64,000 bases of DNA. It comes from the human T2T-CHM13v2.0 reference genome, Homo sapiens. The position numbers and the translations under genes are program-made. Of the stretch, positions 28,341 through 42,225 are shown one piece after another. Numbering within the stretch: position 1 is the first letter of the stretch; the number at the start of each line of letters is the position of its first letter. The DNA lies in NCBI RefSeq assembly GCF_009914755.1, contig NC_060933.1; one strand, given 5' to 3'. A model generated the notes under the pieces. It saw only the letters and a list, made by a program, of their open reading frames with translations. It searched no databases and was not told the origin of the DNA.

Positions 28341-29126
<786 letters not shown>

Positions 29127-29449
29127 GTGTGTGGAGTTTGCCTCTTTTCTTCATCAATTGCCCAGCCTCAGGTATGCCTTTGTAGCAACACAAGTGGACT
29201 AACACTGTGTGTGGACGTTTGTGTATTGGGTGAATGTGCAGAAGCACACACGCGCTCTCAGCAGACACACCCGTGGGCTGCTTCTCCACATGGGAATGTC
29301 ACCCGGCACTGCCAGAGCTATAGAGATAGTGCACACATTCTCACTCTTCTTTGCCTCTGTGATGTCTCTTTGCCACATCACCCTGGGGGTACCGATGATG
29401 TGCAAGATGAGGATAAAGCCAATATTTGACAGATTCTCAAAAAGTACTA

Positions 29450-29532
29450 TTAGGTTGGTACAAAAGTAATGCAGTTTTTGCCATTTTTTTAAAAAGTAAT
29501 GGCCAACCGCGATTACTTTTACACCAACCTAA
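29450..29532. mobile_element. MADE1 mariner MITE
   Basis: TIRs TTAGGTTGGTACAAAAGTAAT and ATTACTTTTACACCAACCTAA; preceded by TA. Confidence 0.92.
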
Positions 29533-30526
29533 GACTTCCCTTTCCAGGAGTCCTTTGGCTCCCAGTTCACTGCTGGGTTTTCCCAGCTCCTCTTAACTTG
29601 CCTCAGTGCTTGAAGGATTCTGCCAGCCCGCAGCCTCCCACCCTACACCTGCAGGCCCCAGAGGCTCCCTGCGGCTCAGCCTGGTGTTGAGCAGTAGTGT
29701 TTGCTCCATCTACACCACAGGAACCAGACTCTTGACCAATTGCAGGTTTTGTATGCACACAGGACTGCATATCCTGGTGGTGGTCACCACCCAGGCCCCA
29801 TGCTCAGCACTTTCATGCATTACCTACCCTCTAGACTAGGTTTTATTTACCCATGTTGCAGATGAGACACGCAATCCAAGAAGTTAAGTAAGCAACCCAG
29901 GTTCACACATTTTCTTTCCTTTCCTTCTCTATTTGCCCTGTAGCCAAGATGACTGAAGTACCAACTCCCTGTGGTCGCTTTCACCAAGCTGGTGAGACTC
30001 AGCCTGCATTACAGCCAGCGGTGGCTCGTGCCAGGACAGCAGCCTCTTCCCTTTAGAGAATCAGGACAGCCAACAAGCAGAGGAGGCTGCGTGGGGCAGC
30101 TCAGGCAAACACCTAGGAGTCCTTGATACCGACGACTGCAGCCCAGTCCTCAATCACATCACTAGAGGTACTTAAAAGATGTCAGCAGGTTGGGAGGGAA
30201 AGAGAAAGCTGTCCTTCTGCTGAAGGGAAGCACAGCCCGACACAGCTTCAGTGTTAGCATTGCATCTTGCTGGACAACCAGTGGCAGATTCTTCCTGGAG
30301 CAGTTCCAGGCTTGAGAATGTGCTGCAGTCTGTGGTTTTTCCAGGTCTATACTTTCCTGGAGCCTCATAACTGATGCAACCTCAAAGGGGATCCCTCTTC
30401 ATGGAGCGGTGTTCAGGTTGTTCACTCTCATGCCTGCTCACCTGGGGCTGTGGTCACTTGCAGCCTGGGGTCATTAGCTGCCTTTTCTCAAGATGGTTTT
30501 TACTGCCTGGAGTATAGGAGCTCTAA

Positions 30527-30953
<427 letters not shown>

Positions 30954-31447
30954 TGACATTCTAATTATTCTTTTTATGATCCCTTCACAGATTGTCATAA
31001 TAGACTCCAAATTCACTCTTGTTCACCCACAAGCATGCATTTACTTGCAATTTGAATGGACTTATGTGCAAAGATAAAAGGAAAATGACCTTCTTTTTTA
31101 GCAGCACTCACTTAGTTCCATCTCTAAAACTAATACTCACTTTTTAAGTTTTGACTATAAAAGTAGAAAAGACCATTGCCTGTCCATGGAGGAGACACTC
31201 AGGCAACTGAGTAGGGCATCTGGGTGCAGCTGTCACGGGAACACTGCACACTCCAGGAGGTGCGAAAGGTCATCCCTGGAGTTACCTGCACATCCCAGAG
31301 GCCCTGGCCTCAAGATGCCCACAAGAAGCTAGTGAGGAAAGACAAATGTGCATCCTCTCTGGCCTCGGCATGGCAGAGCAGAGGGAAGCAGATGGAAGGG
31401 CTCCCAGGCTGGCCCACCTGAACCACAACCAGGATAAAGGCCCGAAT

Positions 31448-31646
31448 CAGGAGGCGGCAAACAATAGCCACTGGCTAAACCCAACCCTTGGCCTGAGTGT
31501 GTGTGGCCAGTCAGCTAAGAATGGTTGTTACAGCTTTGTTTATTTTTTTTTTTAAGGAATATGCGACAGGAACTATCTGGTCAGCTGGTTGGCCAAGACA
31601 ACTATTTTCTATCTGGCCCTTTGTAAAAAAGATTTGCCGACCCCTG
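31448..31646. mobile_element. MER58-type hAT MITE (internally deleted)
   Basis: TIRs CAGGAGGCGGCAAAC and ATTTGCCGACCCCTG; CTATCTGGCCCTTTGTAAAAAA. Confidence 0.75.
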
Positions 31647-32037
31647 GTCTACAGCATGAATGTGTCCCTGGGAAGAGCAGATTGTCCTGACACCACTACA
31701 AAGGAGGCCCAGGGCAGCTGAACTGCTCCATCTCTGCCTCATCTGTTATAAACTGGGCATGGCCAACACCCTGCAGTGGCCCCACTGCCTGGCAAGCCAG
31801 ACCTGCCTCTCCTGGCCCTCTTCATATGCGCCAAGCTAGTGCCCACCAACAGGAGGCGCTGCTGATCCAGCCTAAAGATGTGAGCAAAGAGAGGTTTGCT
31901 ATTATTATCTGGAGGTGGTTTGCAGGCAGGTGTGAGCACATATGGGTCCAGGGCCTTCCAAGTGAGTTCCTCAGTAACCACCCCCTCAGTGCTGTCAGCT
32001 GAGAGGTAGCGGGGCCTCCAGAGGCTCTTGAGATTTA

Positions 32038-32559
<522 letters not shown>

Positions 32560-32733
32560 TTAGCACCACAGACATGTAGGCCACTCGTTGTTCAGTCACA
32601 AGCAGGTGTCCTTCCTTCTTCCTCACTCACCAAGGACGCAGTGTTTATCACAGACTGCATGCACGTGATCATGTCCAGAAGCAAAATAAGCTACTGAAAC
32701 ATTAAACCAGCCTTCCTCTGATCCTGAATCTGA

Positions 32734-33207
<474 letters not shown>

Positions 33208-36200
33208 TAACAGCCCTGTGCTGTCTTCCTGAGGGGCAGAAGCTCAAGGACAGGTGCCTCTCAGGCCCTCAAGCCTCCCATCTCCCAGGGCTGTCTTCTT
33301 CTGTCTTCAAATTGGCAACCCAAATATGGCATGCCGCTCACTAAACAAAACTCCTCCGGGCATCCTCCCACAAGGACAGTCATATGTCCCAGACTTTTGC
33401 AGAACATCTGGAAGCCACAGGACAGCACCCTGCATGTCCCAGCCACCCTAAGAGTTGGCCAGCAGGCACCTGTCCCTAAAAGCCCTCCGCCGCTGCCTGG
33501 CCACAGAAACATTCTGGGCCACCTCTTCAGCTCATGGGCCCCTCTTGCCTTTCTCATGCCTGACACAGGATGTTCCACAAGTGGAAGAAGTTAGCTTCTC
33601 GTCTCACAATTTTACTTTTGAAACCATCTTTCCTCAACCAAAATAGCGCCTGGGGTTGTTTTGCAAAACAAAACAGTTTTCGGCCTCTGCTGACTGTAAA
33701 AAATAACTTCCTCCTGCCTGCTGTATAATCTACTCCTAAACCCACCCCAACATCACAAACGCACAAGAAAAACCTGAAAGGTTTGGCCATCAAATACACA
33801 CAAGGGCTCTCTGGCATGTAGAACCGTAGCTGCCCCGAAGCCACTTCCAGCTGGACCCGAGGGAGGCACGGCCATAGTCCAGCAGGTGTGGCCCCCAGGC
33901 CTGGAGGACGGAGTCTGTCCCACATGGCCAACAGCAGATGGGCCCAGGTCCCCCTGCCCATCACAAGAGACGAGGCATAAAACCGTAATGCTAATGTATT
34001 TGTTTACGGTGAGGTACAGGCTCCAAAATGACAGGTTCTACCTGTTTTCTGTCCTGAGCAAAGACAGGTGTGGACGGGAGAGAAAGAATACATATTCTAT
34101 TTTTCTTTTTACTCAGAAACTAATTCCTCAGGATAGTCTCCTGATACTGTTGCCCCCACTATCCTCACTATCCCCTGAAACCCCTGTTTCAGAGCAGGGC
34201 TGCCTTCTGCCCTCCCCTCCTGGGGGCTGGGCGCGAGTTGTTAGAGCAATGCAGGAGGTGGGCAGTTCAGGGCAGCTTTGGATGCCTCAGGTCCCACAGG
34301 AGCAAATAAACCCTGGACTTCTTGATGCCGTCACAGCCTGGCAGCACCTGCTTGTCCAGCAGACCAGCCACCGCTCCCCGATTCACCATGCCTCAGCCAC
34401 GTGGGCCAACATTCCCTTCCACTGAAGGCACCTGTGAGACTACAGGGACCACCAGCCACAATATCAAGCCCTCCTCCTCCTGCCCCATCACCCCTAGCCA
34501 CCCAGGCTCAGGAAGATGCCCTTCAGAGCACCATGCTCAGCCGCCCGCTCATGAGAGTGCAGGCCAGCCCCCTCGCCCATCTCACTCACACCATTTCCAG
34601 AAATGCCAGCACGGCCTTCTGAATAAGAGTGAGGCAAAATTCAAACCACGTTTAAATTGTTTGAGGATCACATCCACCACCAGTTAGCATGGGTGAAGAG
34701 TCCGTGGAGAGGGTACTGCAGGGCTTCCGTGGAAGCAACTGTATTTTTACACAGCCGTAGTGCTCGGCTCACCAGGTTCGGCTCACAGCCCCCGATACCT
34801 GGCTGTGTCCAGCAGAGGGGAAGTCTCCTGGGAAGAGGCCTTTGAGAGGTTTATACACATGTGCGATGTGGGCCAGCGGGCGGCCCCGGGAGCCAGCAAA
34901 GGTCAGACATTTGTCCTTCCAGACACAGCTCCCGCGAGGTAGAACACGGCACCAAGATGCAGCGTGGACCCCACGACCACCATTGGGGTACCCAGGCGCC
35001 CAGAGAACACATGCCACGCGGCAGCGTTTGTACCACGGAGGGCAATGCAAACAGCTGACACCTGGCAGCGCTCCAGAACTGCCGCTGGGGCGTTTTGCTT
35101 CTGAAAAAACCACCCTCCTGTATCCTCTGTTCACACAATTCCCTCCGCCCCAGGGCTCCCCTCCCGCTGCAACGGCTGCATCCTGCACACCCCTTTGCAC
35201 TCCTCTCTCATACCAGGACACTGGGGGGCAGTCATCCGACACACCACACAACTCCGTCCTCTGCTCCAGCTTCCGCTCAGCGGAGAATGGCTCCCTTATC
35301 TGATGGTTCCAGGATGCTCTGTGGCAACACTGAGTGTAAAGCAAACAAGGCCATCGGGTGCTGCAGCCTGCACACCAGCGTGGTCCTGGGCCACACACCG
35401 GGCAGCCGGAGAGAATCTCTGCAGCTCCCAGGCGGCAGGGTGCACAAATCACAGCCTTTCCTTGACCCCGCGAGCTGAGAGAGCAAAGTCACAGACAGAC
35501 TGTTTTAAGTGGATTCAGGGAAACACCCCCCACTGCTGTCCCCCCTCCCGCCCCAACGCACACATACATGCACACACAGCTTTGTTTCCTTGTCATTCCT
35601 CTCATTCCCTCAATAACCCCTGATAGGCTTCTAGGAATACTTCCTCTCTCAGCAAAGGAAAAGTGTATGGTTCTGTGTTACAAGATGATTGGGCTTTAAG
35701 CAAATGAAATTGAAGGCCTACAGCACTGGGGTAAACCTCCTCCAGGCAGCAGCAGGCATTGAAACAGTGCTCATTAGAGCTTAGGATTCTTCCTCCTTCT
35801 CACTACAGCATTTTAATTAACTGGAAACAATACCTCAAGGCAGTATTGCAATACCTTTGGACTGAAACATTAATAAACAGAGAAAATTTGCTTACAAAAT
35901 GGCAAGTTAGAGGAAATGGAGGCCGACTAATAAATAAATGAGCCAAAGTTCAAAGGCTGCAGGATGACTCACACGTGCCGTGCCTGCCTCGCAGCCAGGA
36001 CTTTCAAAAACAAAGGGGTGGTGGACGGATTCCACAAGAACGGCTGTTAAAGTCCACGAGGCTGACCCAGGCTGGGACTTCCTGGAAACTCCAAGGAGAG
36101 GAACTGCCCACAGAGCCAGGGACTCAGGACTGGCACAAGAAATGGCACAGCGCCTGTGCTGCACGTTTGCAAGTGACCTGCTCTTCTGACCGCAGAAGCG

Positions 36201-38649: not shown

Positions 38650-39836
<1,187 letters not shown>

Positions 39837-39844
39837 TGTCTGCG

Positions 39845-40235
39845 TTTACTTTTTTATTTTGAAACAGCTTTAGACTTACAGAAAGTTGCAAAAATAGTAG
39901 AGAGATTTCCTGCATAACCTATAGCCAACTTCCCTTACCATCGGCATCTTCCATAACATGGGGCAGTGATCAAAACCAAGAAACTAACTTTGGTAAAGTA
40001 CTATGAGCCAAACTCCAGACCCTACCCAAACCTCAGGTTGTCACACCAGTGTCCCTTGCTGCTCTGGGACCAGAGGGCCTGCAGTCACCCTCTCCTTGGC
40101 CTCCTTCTCCTGAACTGTTCCTGAGCCTGTCCTTAGCTGCTGTACCCTTGACTCTGGAAGAGAACTGGGCAGGTATTTTGTAGCTTGTCCCTTCGTGTGT
40201 GTTTATCTGATGATTTTCCCGAGTAGATGAGATTG
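39845..40235 (-). mobile_element. Old L1M 3' end fragment
   Basis: TTTTATTTTGAAACAGCTTTAGACTTACAGAAAGTTGCAAAAATAG start, typical of antisense L1MC/MD/ME tails. Confidence 0.7.
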
Positions 40236-40373
40236 TGGAGCAGAGAGAGGGTCGGTTTTGCTCATTTTTCCTTTTGCTTCAGCCAATTTCCTTTTCCTCC
40301 ATGGCCCCACCACTGAGTTTTTCTCTATTTAACCATCATGGAGTGTATTTGCATTAATTTTGATTTTTAAACG

Positions 40374-41010
40374 ATTGCATTGAAATACTATTGACCTTGA
40401 TGACTGAGTTTCTTGCACTCCCTCACCCCTCCATTAAACTTGACTCCCAAGGCAAGTGCCTCACTCATCTCACCCGAACCCCTGAGCTGATTGGTCAAGG
40501 CAAGGCCCCGGCCAGCCTGGATTTAAGGGGAGGGGGTGGGCTCCCTGTTGCCTACAGTGGTGGGAGGGGGTGTTGAAGGCCATGGCTGGAACAATCCCTC
40601 ACTCATCCCTTCCAGTTCTGCTTTCTGTCATGTCCAAAGATGTGGCAGCTCCCCTGCGATTCTCTCCTGCCCACTTTCCTTTCTTGAAATGCAGAAACAA
40701 TGCACTAGGTACAAATGAAAAAGAGAAGTCTCGCCAGTGAGGAGCTAGCTAGCCCTGAGGTTGCCTCCCCTCAGCAGGCTCGGGCTTCTGGGATCCAGCC
40801 ATGGCCTTCAACACCCCCTCCCACCACTGTAGGCAACAGGGAGCCCACCCCCTCCCCTTAAATCCAGGCTGGCCGGGGCCTTGCCTTGACCAATCAGCTC
40901 AGGGTTTCGGGTGAGATGAGTGAGGCACTTGCCTTGGGAGTCAAGTTTAATGGAGGGGTGAGGGAGTGCAAGAAACTCAGTCATCAAGGTCAATAGTATT
41001 TCAATGCAAT
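40374..41010. repeat. Inverted repeat: 217-bp arms (40374-40590, 40794-41010), 203-bp spacer
   Basis: Arms are reverse complements with a single mismatch (40479 C vs 40905 T); the same peptide appears in ORFs 40391+ and 40808-. Confidence 0.98.
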
Positions 41011-41732
41011 ATGTACTCGGGTAGAAAGGAAGAAAACACGCCAGCAGGCGGCTGCTGGGACGTTTTGTCCTCCCATGGTTTCTCTGAGAACGTTCTGTTC
41101 TACATCCTCTCCATCCATGCTCTGGAGTTATGGGAACAATAAAAGAAGAATTAAAATCTGGAAGCCAAGTGTGCCTGACTGCCAAAGGGGCTCCATATGG
41201 GAGAGGGGGGTATGCGGCCAAACCACTCCCGACTCCCGTGGCAGGACCGCACAGCCATCTGCAAACACCTGGGAAAAGCACGTGGGTGTTTTCCAGAGCC
41301 CCCCATAAGCTGCAAGAGCTGCTGCCCCTGCAGAGACATGACGCCAGCCTTCCGCACCCTCCCACACCGAGTCCCACAGCCGCTGCTCAGAACCCCTCCT
41401 GCCTACCCTTCTCTCTGGCTCCACTCCCAGCGCACCTTCCTCCCTTCCAGCCATGCCCCTGGTGGTTCCTAATGCCAATCACTTTCACTGCTTCTATCCC
41501 GCCATTCTCCAATCGGGCTGCAGCAGCCCCTTACAGGGCCTGGGACCTAAGTAGGCAAACCCAAACTTTCCTTAGAAGGCCGGAGAGCAAGAGGAAGTCA
41601 AGTACTGTAATAACTCACACTCCCTGCACACAGGAAGGATCAGGCTGAGCTCAGGCCCTCATGTGCATGCACCCACCTAGTCCTCACCACCAGCCTCCTT
41701 TTTGCAGGAGAAGAAACAGGCTCAGTGACCAG

Positions 41733-42225
41733 TGAAAAGGGAAAGAAACTTTTAGTCTATGGAATGCAAGCCCCCTTTAATTATCAGGCCCAGAGAGGTG
41801 CTGAAATATGTCCGTGTGTGACTGCAGTCACGCCTCACTCACCCCTTGAGCTAAGTAATTACTTCTTGAAGGCTCTTGCAGTGTGCACTCCAGACTGACG
41901 CCAAGGAGCCATAAAATGCCTTACGTTGGACACAATAATTCATACCCTAGAGCTTAACCGTGTACAGCCAATCACCAATGTTACTTCTATAAACCTATGA
42001 GAATTCCTCAGGAACAACTTTGTAATGGTCCCCCTCCTGATTCACTGTCTTTTAAAACACACACACACATACACACACACACACACATGTACTCGAGCCT
42101 TTCCTTTGTTTTCTGGTGCACTCCCCAAGGCAACTTGGAAGTGTGTCCCAGGCTGCAGTCCTCAACCGTGGCCCAAATAAACTCTCTAAATTAATTTGGC
42201 TTGAGTCTCTTTCTTTAGATGGACA
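41733..42225 (+). mobile_element. ERV1-class solo LTR (MER67-like) inserted in a MIR
   Basis: TG...CA termini, 4-bp TSD CCAG (41729-41732 and 42226-42229), CCAAT boxes, AATAAA near 42176, internal (CA)n. Confidence 0.8.

What the first reader, a model, noticed from the sequence alone, without database searches (positions are those of the whole stretch)
40374..41010. Near-perfect 217-bp inverted repeat flanking a 203-bp spacer
Seen: arms 40374-40590 and 40794-41010 are reverse complements at 216/217 bases, with a sharp outer boundary. The inner boundary possibly extends by TCCC after a 4-nt indel. I do not recognise the arms as any TE, and every other repeat in the window is far more diverged. 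Established: close, near-identical inverted repeats can extrude hairpins or cruciforms, mediate recurrent inversion of the spacer, and be homogenised by gene conversion. Inference: this is either a very recent fold-back/template-switch duplication or an older IR kept identical by arm-to-arm conversion. It could be a polymorphic micro-inversion, or yield a ~217-bp dsRNA stem if transcribed.
Basis: partly seen in the sequence, partly recalled or inferred. Interest (0 to 1): 0.8.

Follow-up and report, generated by a model that had tools for sequence, protein, structure and literature searches.

The report
Young inverted duplication, non-coding chr9
A 217-base stretch of non-coding human chromosome 9 was copied backwards and inserted 203 bases downstream, leaving a near-perfect inverted repeat that is real but an ordinary kind of replication or repair mistake with no sign of function.

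Summary
Arms 40374-40590 and 40794-41010 are reverse complements at 216 of 217 bases with a 203-base spacer. It is the only near-perfect close inverted repeat in the window.

It is not a transposon. The arm has only these two close copies in the 3.1-Gb assembly, and the inner arm, spacer and right flank are unique.

The outer ~100 bases of each arm belong to an old, high-copy interspersed repeat. That repeat runs on 26-46 bases past the outer edge of the left arm in 29 of 31 family copies compared. It stops at the outer edge of the right arm in all 31. So the left arm sits in its ancestral setting, and the right arm is the derived inverted copy.

Both edges are sharp, with no decayed homology beyond them. 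With one mismatch, this favours a recent one-step inverted duplication by template switching over an old repeat kept identical by conversion. Ape comparisons, population data and transcription could not be checked here.

Ordinary kind; unusually large for a short-range template switch; no evidence of function.

The parts
40374..40590 (+). Arm 1, the parental (source) copy of the inverted duplication
   Evidence: the repeat finder. An old interspersed repeat continues uninterrupted across its outer edge in 29 of 31 family copies compared.
40591..40793 (.). 203-nt spacer, unique in the genome. Its orientation relative to the ancestral state is unknown.
   Evidence: Own-genome searches found only self matches. 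There is no internal palindromic symmetry: spacer halves score 14, and 333 of 500 shuffles do as well.
40794..41010 (-). Arm 2, the derived reverse-complement copy. Its outer end at 41010 is a novel junction (breakpoint).
   Evidence: 0 of 31 family copies align 10 nt or more past its outer edge. The right flank 41011-41400 is unique.
40328..40490 (.). Copy of an old, high-copy interspersed repeat that I could not name (no TE library here). The inverted repeat's outer boundary at 40374 lies inside it. The right end is approximate.
   Evidence: 94 first-look candidates, 40 scored, 38 of them elsewhere in the genome at 71-86% identity, starting at window 40328-40350. Alignment. The window copy is 86.4% identical to the majority consensus (108 of 125 columns).
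40479..40479 (.). The only mismatch between the arms (partner position 40905)
40595..40598 (+). TCCC, complementary to GGGA at the spacer's 3' end (40790-40793). Possible priming microhomology or a remnant of a slightly longer arm; weak.
   Evidence: Chance 2.5-4.8%.

Best explanation
This is a one-step inverted duplication. A DNA strand being synthesised during replication or break repair left its template at about the present spacer/arm-2 border. It primed on the complementary strand, or on itself, at the inner end of arm 1 and copied arm 1 backwards for 217 nt. It then returned to the original template at the present right flank. In the four-point template-switch model this is type 3-2-1-4, or 3-1-2-4 if the spacer was inverted as well. 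Arm 1 is the source and arm 2 the copy. The event is evolutionarily recent. Without conversion, one difference in 217 sites gives about 2-5 Myr, with a Poisson 95% range of about 0.06-26 Myr using recalled mutation rates. The product is most likely neutral, sitting in an unannotated stretch between lncRNA genes. What is shown: the repeat, its uniqueness, the polarity, the sharp edges. What is inferred: the template-switch mechanism, the age, the neutrality.
For: 1. The repeat is 216/217 identical with a 203-nt spacer.
2. The 3.1-Gb assembly holds only these two close copies of the arm. The other 5 of 7 matches are 45-101-nt stretches at 71-89%.
3. The inner arm, spacer and right flank are unique even at E<=10.
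4. Polarity: the outer ~100 nt of the arm is part of an old repeat family. In 29 of 31 family loci compared, homology continues 10 nt or more, and up to 46 nt, past arm 1's outer edge. In 0 of 31 does it continue 10 nt or more past arm 2's outer edge; the maximum is 5 nt, and 2 loci gave no right-side hit (alignment). Of the 5 loci found with the arm alone, which are not biased towards the left flank, 3 extend on the left and 0 on the right.
5. There is no decayed homology beyond either edge.
6. The arms differ by 0.46%, whereas the host repeat copy is about 14% from its family consensus. The duplication is therefore far younger than the repeat insertion.
7. Template switches that create inverted repeats in one step are documented in human and ape evolution (PMC5453318 passages; PMC7954356 passages; PMC10710096 passages).
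Against: No outgroup or population sequence could be examined, so the ancestral state (arm 2 absent) is inferred, not seen. Published short-range template switches are tens of nt: 28-83 nt in PMC10710096, and a search space of +/-100 nt in PMC7954356. A 217-nt copy across a jump of 200-420 nt is larger than that class. Microhomology at the switch points is not demonstrable: the only candidate is a 4-nt TCCC/GGGA offset by 4 nt (chance 2.5-4.8%), and none can be read at the return junction. The family loci were selected with a query that included the left flank, so the '29 of 31' is partly built in; the informative number is 0 of 31 on the right. The age rests on a single mismatch and recalled mutation rates. 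Arm-to-arm conversion would make it an underestimate.
Confidence: 0.78

Rival explanations
1. An old inverted duplication, predating the ape radiation, whose arms have been kept nearly identical by repeated arm-to-arm gene conversion, as in the large sex-chromosome palindromes.
For: Identity of 99.5% alone cannot separate youth from conversion. Close inverted repeats are known substrates for intrachromosomal recombination: inverted repeats of 140-300 bp mediate polymorphic inversions in humans (PMC13629690, Table S1 part 1).
Against: Both edges are sharp, with no diverged margin of former homology. Conversion tracts need flanking homology, so an old converted repeat should have eroded edges (inference from general knowledge). 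The arms are only 217 nt, near the lower limit for efficient homologous recombination (recalled).
Confidence: 0.12
2. A non-autonomous DNA transposon (MITE-like) with 217-nt terminal inverted repeats, or two head-to-head copies of a young repeat.
For: The layout (long inverted ends and a short unique core, 637 nt in all) looks like one. The outer arm matches an interspersed repeat.
Against: No other copy of the arm's inner half, the spacer or the whole unit exists in the genome. The left end lies 26-46 nt inside an older repeat copy that continues outward. There is no target-site duplication: the left flank ends ...AAACG and the right flank starts ATGTA.... The matching family is old, at 71-86% identity.
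Confidence: 0.02
3. An assembly or consensus artefact, such as a fold-back chimeric read carried into the assembly.
For: Palindromic artefacts occur in single long reads (recalled). I could not inspect reads.
Against: The arms differ at one base and are separated by a 203-nt unique spacer. A fold-back read artefact would give an exact palindrome running to the read end (inference). The region is otherwise unique, ordinary euchromatin.
Confidence: 0.03
4. A sub-variant of the best explanation: an inversion with staggered breaks, or a 3-1-2-4 template switch. In this case the spacer is inverted relative to the ancestor and the ancestral arm/spacer junction is the right-hand one.
For: Type 3-1-2-4 events made up 23% of high-confidence human-chimp events, against 31% for the 3-2-1-4 type (PMC5453318 passages). 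Nothing in the sequence fixes the spacer's orientation, since the spacer and both inner junctions are unique.
Against: None specific. It cannot be told apart here.
Confidence: 0.3

Closest known systems
Short-range template-switch mutations (four-point model; Loytynoja & Goldman 2017, PMC5453318; Walker et al. 2021, PMC7954356; Monttinen et al. 2023, PMC10710096)
   Same: A nearby segment is copied in reverse complement in one event. This creates a perfect inverted repeat or hairpin beside unchanged source sequence. The geometry matches type 3-2-1-4 (or 3-1-2-4).
   Different: The copied fragment is 217 nt and the jump is 200-420 nt. The published sets deal with tens of nt (28-83 nt examples; +/-100 nt search space). 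The ancestral state was not seen here.
Replication-based CNV mechanisms (FoSTeS/MMBIR; fold-back inverted duplications, PMC2621351 and PMC3907307, seen in a search listing only)
   Same: Template switching or fold-back priming gives an inverted duplication with a single-copy spacer between the arms.
   Different: Those events span kilobases to megabases, often with terminal deletions or triplications. This one is 217 nt, interstitial, and has no clear microhomology.
Inverted repeats that mediate polymorphic human inversions by NAHR (PMC6748972; PMC13629690)
   Same: Highly identical inverted repeats flank a short unique segment. Catalogued repeats go down to 140 bp and inverted segments down to 197 bp.
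   Different: This locus was not found in that catalogue of 612 regions. Both orientations have not been observed. The small catalogued repeats in the part I read are typed SINE, apart from one 418-bp LTR pair.
Conversion-maintained palindromes of the sex chromosomes
   Same: Arm identity above 99% with a unique spacer.
   Different: Those arms are kilobases to megabases long and carry genes (recalled). Here the arms are 217 nt and hold no gene.

Membership tests
Template-switch inverted duplication (four-point type 3-2-1-4 / 3-1-2-4) | A fragment is present as a reverse-complement copy of nearby sequence | tested here: met
   216/217 reverse complement 203 nt away
Template-switch inverted duplication (four-point type 3-2-1-4 / 3-1-2-4) | One copy lies in ancestral context and the other is bounded by novel junctions | tested here: met
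   The old repeat continues past arm 1's outer edge in 29 of 31 comparisons and past arm 2's in 0 of 31
Template-switch inverted duplication (four-point type 3-2-1-4 / 3-1-2-4) | The ancestral or outgroup sequence lacks the second copy | not testable with these tools
   No primate genomes or human pangenome are held
Template-switch inverted duplication (four-point type 3-2-1-4 / 3-1-2-4) | Microhomology at switch points (usual but not obligatory) | tested here: inconclusive
   Only a 4-nt TCCC/GGGA offset by 4 nt, with a chance of 2.5-4.8%. The return junction cannot be read without the ancestor.
Template-switch inverted duplication (four-point type 3-2-1-4 / 3-1-2-4) | Size within the published short-range class (tens of nt) | tested here: not met
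   217 nt against 28-83 nt examples and a +/-100 nt search space. This is a limit of the published searches rather than of the mechanism.
DNA transposon / MITE with terminal inverted repeats | Multiple dispersed copies of the whole unit | tested here: not met
   Only self matches for the inner arm and spacer
DNA transposon / MITE with terminal inverted repeats | Target-site duplication flanking the ends | tested here: not met
   The flanks ...AAACG and ATGTA... share no direct repeat
DNA transposon / MITE with terminal inverted repeats | The ends of the repeat coincide with the ends of the element | tested here: not met
   The left end lies inside an older repeat copy that continues 26-46 nt outward
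IR-mediated polymorphic inversion (NAHR) | Highly identical inverted repeats long enough for NAHR | tested here: met
   217 nt at 99.5%. Catalogued repeats start at 140 bp.
IR-mediated polymorphic inversion (NAHR) | Both spacer orientations observed among individuals | not testable with these tools
   No population assemblies are held. There is no chr9 entry at about hg38 90.91-91.09 Mb in Table S1 of PMC13629690; the hg38 position is my approximate, recalled conversion.
Conversion-maintained palindrome | The same inverted repeat present in distant species, with arms more alike within than between species | not testable with these tools
   No outgroup genomes. The indirect sign (eroded margins) is absent.
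Hairpin RNA gene (miRNA / long hairpin RNA) | Match to a described RNA family | tested here: not met
   Rfam at E<=1 over 39500-42000 gave 3 weak hits, none on the inverted repeat
Hairpin RNA gene (miRNA / long hairpin RNA) | Evidence of transcription | not testable with these tools
   The hub's gene table lists no gene at 40374-41010. No expression data are held.

The most novel reading that the evidence does not exclude
A single, unusually long (217-nt) template switch in the human or African-ape lineage created a locus that is still active in one of two ways. Either it is a flip-flop micro-inversion, whose 203-nt spacer changes orientation recurrently between the arms. Or it is a newborn long-hairpin RNA source: if transcribed, it would give a 217-bp near-perfect dsRNA stem (predicted RNA fold -539 kcal/mol). 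Such a stem could feed A-to-I editing, endo-siRNA production or dsRNA sensing. It would also show that the template-switch process known for tens of nucleotides extends smoothly to hundreds.
Probability: 0.07. Interest if true: 0.6.

Novelty: new member of a known kind. Interest (0 to 1): 0.25.

Why it matters
The locus is a clean, datable example of an intermediate-sized inverted duplication. It is larger than the tens-of-nucleotide template switches catalogued in ape genomes and far smaller than CNV-scale fold-back events. Unusually, the direction of copying can be read from the sequence alone, because an old repeat is cut at one arm only. It could serve as a test case for template-switch detectors, whose search space is currently about +/-100 nt. 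It could also extend inversion catalogues towards small non-TE inverted repeats. There is no evidence that it affects any gene.

Tried and rejected
- **Transposon with terminal inverted repeats.** Rejected on copy number, missing target-site duplication and the end lying inside an older repeat.
- **Known RNA family.** None on the repeat.
- **Coding or exon origin.** There are 23 stop-to-stop frames of at least 40 aa over 40200-41200. The three tested (192, 186 and 84 aa) gave 0 Pfam families.
- **Residual palindromy in the spacer, or homology beyond the arms.** None.
- **A second templated piece.** The right flank's first 11 nt match the reverse complement of 40218-40228 at 10/11. However, 133 of 3000 random anchors do as well, so I treat this as chance.
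- **5-nt and 'AT' microhomologies.** I had noted these early (note). They were an indexing slip, corrected; only the 4-nt TCCC remains.
- **Using an old repeat across the inner junctions to fix the spacer's orientation.** Not possible, because both junction regions are unique.
- **Naming the old repeat family.** Not possible without a TE library. My recollections did not fit, so I give no name.
- **Catalogue of 612 IR-mediated inversion candidates.** No entry near the locus. This depends on my approximate hg38 conversion.

Full report
**Observation.** The window is T2T-CHM13 chr9:103168001-103232000 (hub note; confirmed). Bases 40374-40590 and 40794-41010 are reverse complements over 217 nt with 203 nt between them. 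A base-by-base comparison finds one mismatch: 40479 C against the complement of 40905, which is A. Among inverted repeats of at least 40 nt within 3 kb in the whole window, 6 pairs were found. The other five are 80-85% complementary; by their length of about 105-290 nt and a partial SRP-RNA hit nearby they look like Alu pairs.

**Not a transposon, not a multi-copy sequence.** I searched the 3.1-Gb assembly with arm 1, which gave 7 matches. Two are the arms themselves. The other five are 45-101-nt stretches at 71-89% identity, and all fall within the first 102 nt of the arm. The inner arm plus spacer (40476-40793), the right flank (41011-41400) and both inner junction regions matched only themselves, even at E<=10. 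The tool warns that its counts are lower bounds and that very common words are skipped. There is no target-site duplication: the flanks are ...AAACG and ATGTA.... Rfam at E<=1 gave nothing on the repeat. Of 23 stop-to-stop frames of at least 40 aa over 40200-41200, the three tested (192, 186 and 84 aa) matched no Pfam family.

**Polarity of the duplication.** A query of 40150-40480 returned 94 first-look candidates, of which 40 were scored. Thirty-eight of these lie elsewhere in the genome at 71-86% identity. Their matches start at window 40328-40350 and end at 40392-40475. So the outer ~100 nt of the arm is part of an old, abundant interspersed repeat whose copy here begins 26-46 nt to the left of the arm's edge. 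I could not name the family because no TE library is available.

I compared 31 family loci with both contexts. These were the 33 fetched, minus two that duplicate the same places.

- In 29 of 31, homology runs 10 nt or more past arm 1's outer edge.
- In 0 of 31 does it run 10 nt or more past arm 2's outer edge. The furthest reach is 5 nt, and 2 loci gave no right-side hit (alignment).

The 28 loci were selected with a query that contained the left flank, so the left-side count is partly built in. The right-side zero is the informative result. In addition, among the 5 loci found with the arm alone, 3 extend on the left and none on the right. Hence the left-flank/arm-1 junction is ancestral and the arm-2/right-flank junction at 41010|41011 is a breakpoint. 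Arm 2 is the derived copy.

**Young, or old and converted?**

- Beyond both edges there is no decayed homology. Outer flanks score 14 and 17, with 215 of 500 and 185 of 500 shuffles doing as well. The spacer halves score 14, with 333 of 500 shuffles doing as well.
- An old repeat held together by conversion should show eroded margins, because conversion tracts need flanking homology (inference).
- The arms differ by 0.46% (Poisson 95% range 0.012-2.57%). The host repeat copy is about 14% from its family's majority consensus (108 of 125 columns match).
- With recalled mutation rates of 0.5-1.0e-9 per site per year, and no conversion, this gives about 2.3-4.6 Myr, with outer bounds of about 0.06-26 Myr.
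- The upper bound of 2.6% is below the human-orangutan divergence as I recall it. I therefore predict arm 2 is absent from monkeys and probably from orangutan. This is a prediction, not a result.

**Mechanism.** The geometry is that of a template switch and return in the four-point model. Replication reaches the end of the spacer (point 1) and jumps to the inner end of arm 1 (point 2). It copies in reverse complement to 40374 (point 3) and returns at the right flank (point 4). This is order 3-2-1-4, a type that creates an inverted repeat and made up 31% of high-confidence human-chimp events. The 3-1-2-4 type also inverts the spacer and made up 23% (PMC5453318, passages). I cannot tell these two apart, because the spacer and both inner junctions are unique. 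A break-repair version, in which a resected 3' end snaps back, primes and is then rejoined, would give the same product.

Support from microhomology is weak. The spacer's 3' end GGGA is complementary to TCCC 4 nt inside the spacer's 5' end, which happens by chance in 2.5-4.8% of random segments. A 10/11 inverted match of the first 11 nt of the right flank to 40218-40228 is matched by 133 of 3000 random anchors. The return junction cannot be read without the ancestor.

Published short-range template switches are tens of nt: 28-83 nt examples (PMC10710096, passages) and a +/-100 nt search space (PMC7954356, passages). This event is larger than what those screens could see.

**Likely consequences.** As single strands the 637 nt fold into a 217-bp stem. 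The DNA fold is -328 kcal/mol (z -43) and the RNA fold is -539 kcal/mol (z -43); 0 of 20 shuffles do as well in either case.

A review read in passages (PMC7999016) reports three relevant points:
- Alu inverted repeats with a 12-bp spacer stall forks, but with a 52-bp spacer they do so only in E. coli, not in eukaryotic cells.
- The eukaryotic Okazaki initiation zone is 100-200 nt.
- Longer spacers lower the risk to genome stability.

With a 203-nt spacer, I therefore expect this locus to be stable against hairpin or cruciform breakage.

Inversion of the spacer by recombination between the arms is not excluded. A catalogue of 612 candidate IR-mediated inversions includes repeats down to 140 bp and inverted segments down to 197 bp, and several polymorphic cases have SINE-derived repeats of 140-300 bp (PMC13629690; passages; Table S1 part 1). 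I found no chr9 entry at about hg38 90.91-91.09 Mb in that file. My hg38 position is an approximate recalled conversion, and the catalogue was not built to find small non-TE repeats.

The hub table lists no gene at the locus, and expression could not be checked. My best reading is a neutral, lineage-specific structural mutation.

**Verdict.** The feature is real and is explained as a recent inverted duplication with a readable direction of copying. It belongs to a known kind of mutation, at an unusual size, with no evidence of function. Ape and pangenome alignments would settle its age, the spacer's orientation and whether it is polymorphic.

Noticed in passing
window 40490-40584 (mirrored in 40800-40894 on the minus strand): By eye, each arm carries a promoter-like layout pointing into the spacer: an inverted CCAAT box (ATTGG, 40490-40494), a TATA-like ATTTAAG (40521-40527), a G-rich GC-box-like run (40530-40539) and an ATG in a good Kozak context (40582-40584). 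The duplication would thus place two such units convergently. The motif names are recalled, no statistics were done, and the frames behind the ATGs are short with no Pfam hit.
   Followed up: partly
window 28424-33126: A cluster of diverged inverted repeat pairs (80-85% complementary, 123-288 nt arms, spacers 0.5-2.2 kb), probably Alu elements in opposite orientation. They overlap the stretch where RefSeq lists enhancer elements (31913-33777).
   Followed up: no
window 39500-39579: Partial match to metazoan SRP RNA (36 bits, below the gathering score) and a weak mir-1268 hit. Both are typical of an Alu copy.
   Followed up: no
window 40808-41648: Two long stop-to-stop open frames (192 aa on the minus strand at 40808-41386; 186 aa on the plus strand at 41088-41648) in a stretch of 54-64% G+C (windows from 41100 to 41699) just right of the repeat. 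Neither has a Pfam match; probably chance in GC-rich DNA.
   Followed up: partly
window 40372-40373 versus 41011-41012: The two bases just outside arm 2 (AT, read as reverse complement) match the old repeat family's consensus at that position (…AAAAT|ATTGC…), while the bases outside arm 1 (CG) do not. The chance is about 1 in 16; it is left unexplained.
   Followed up: partly
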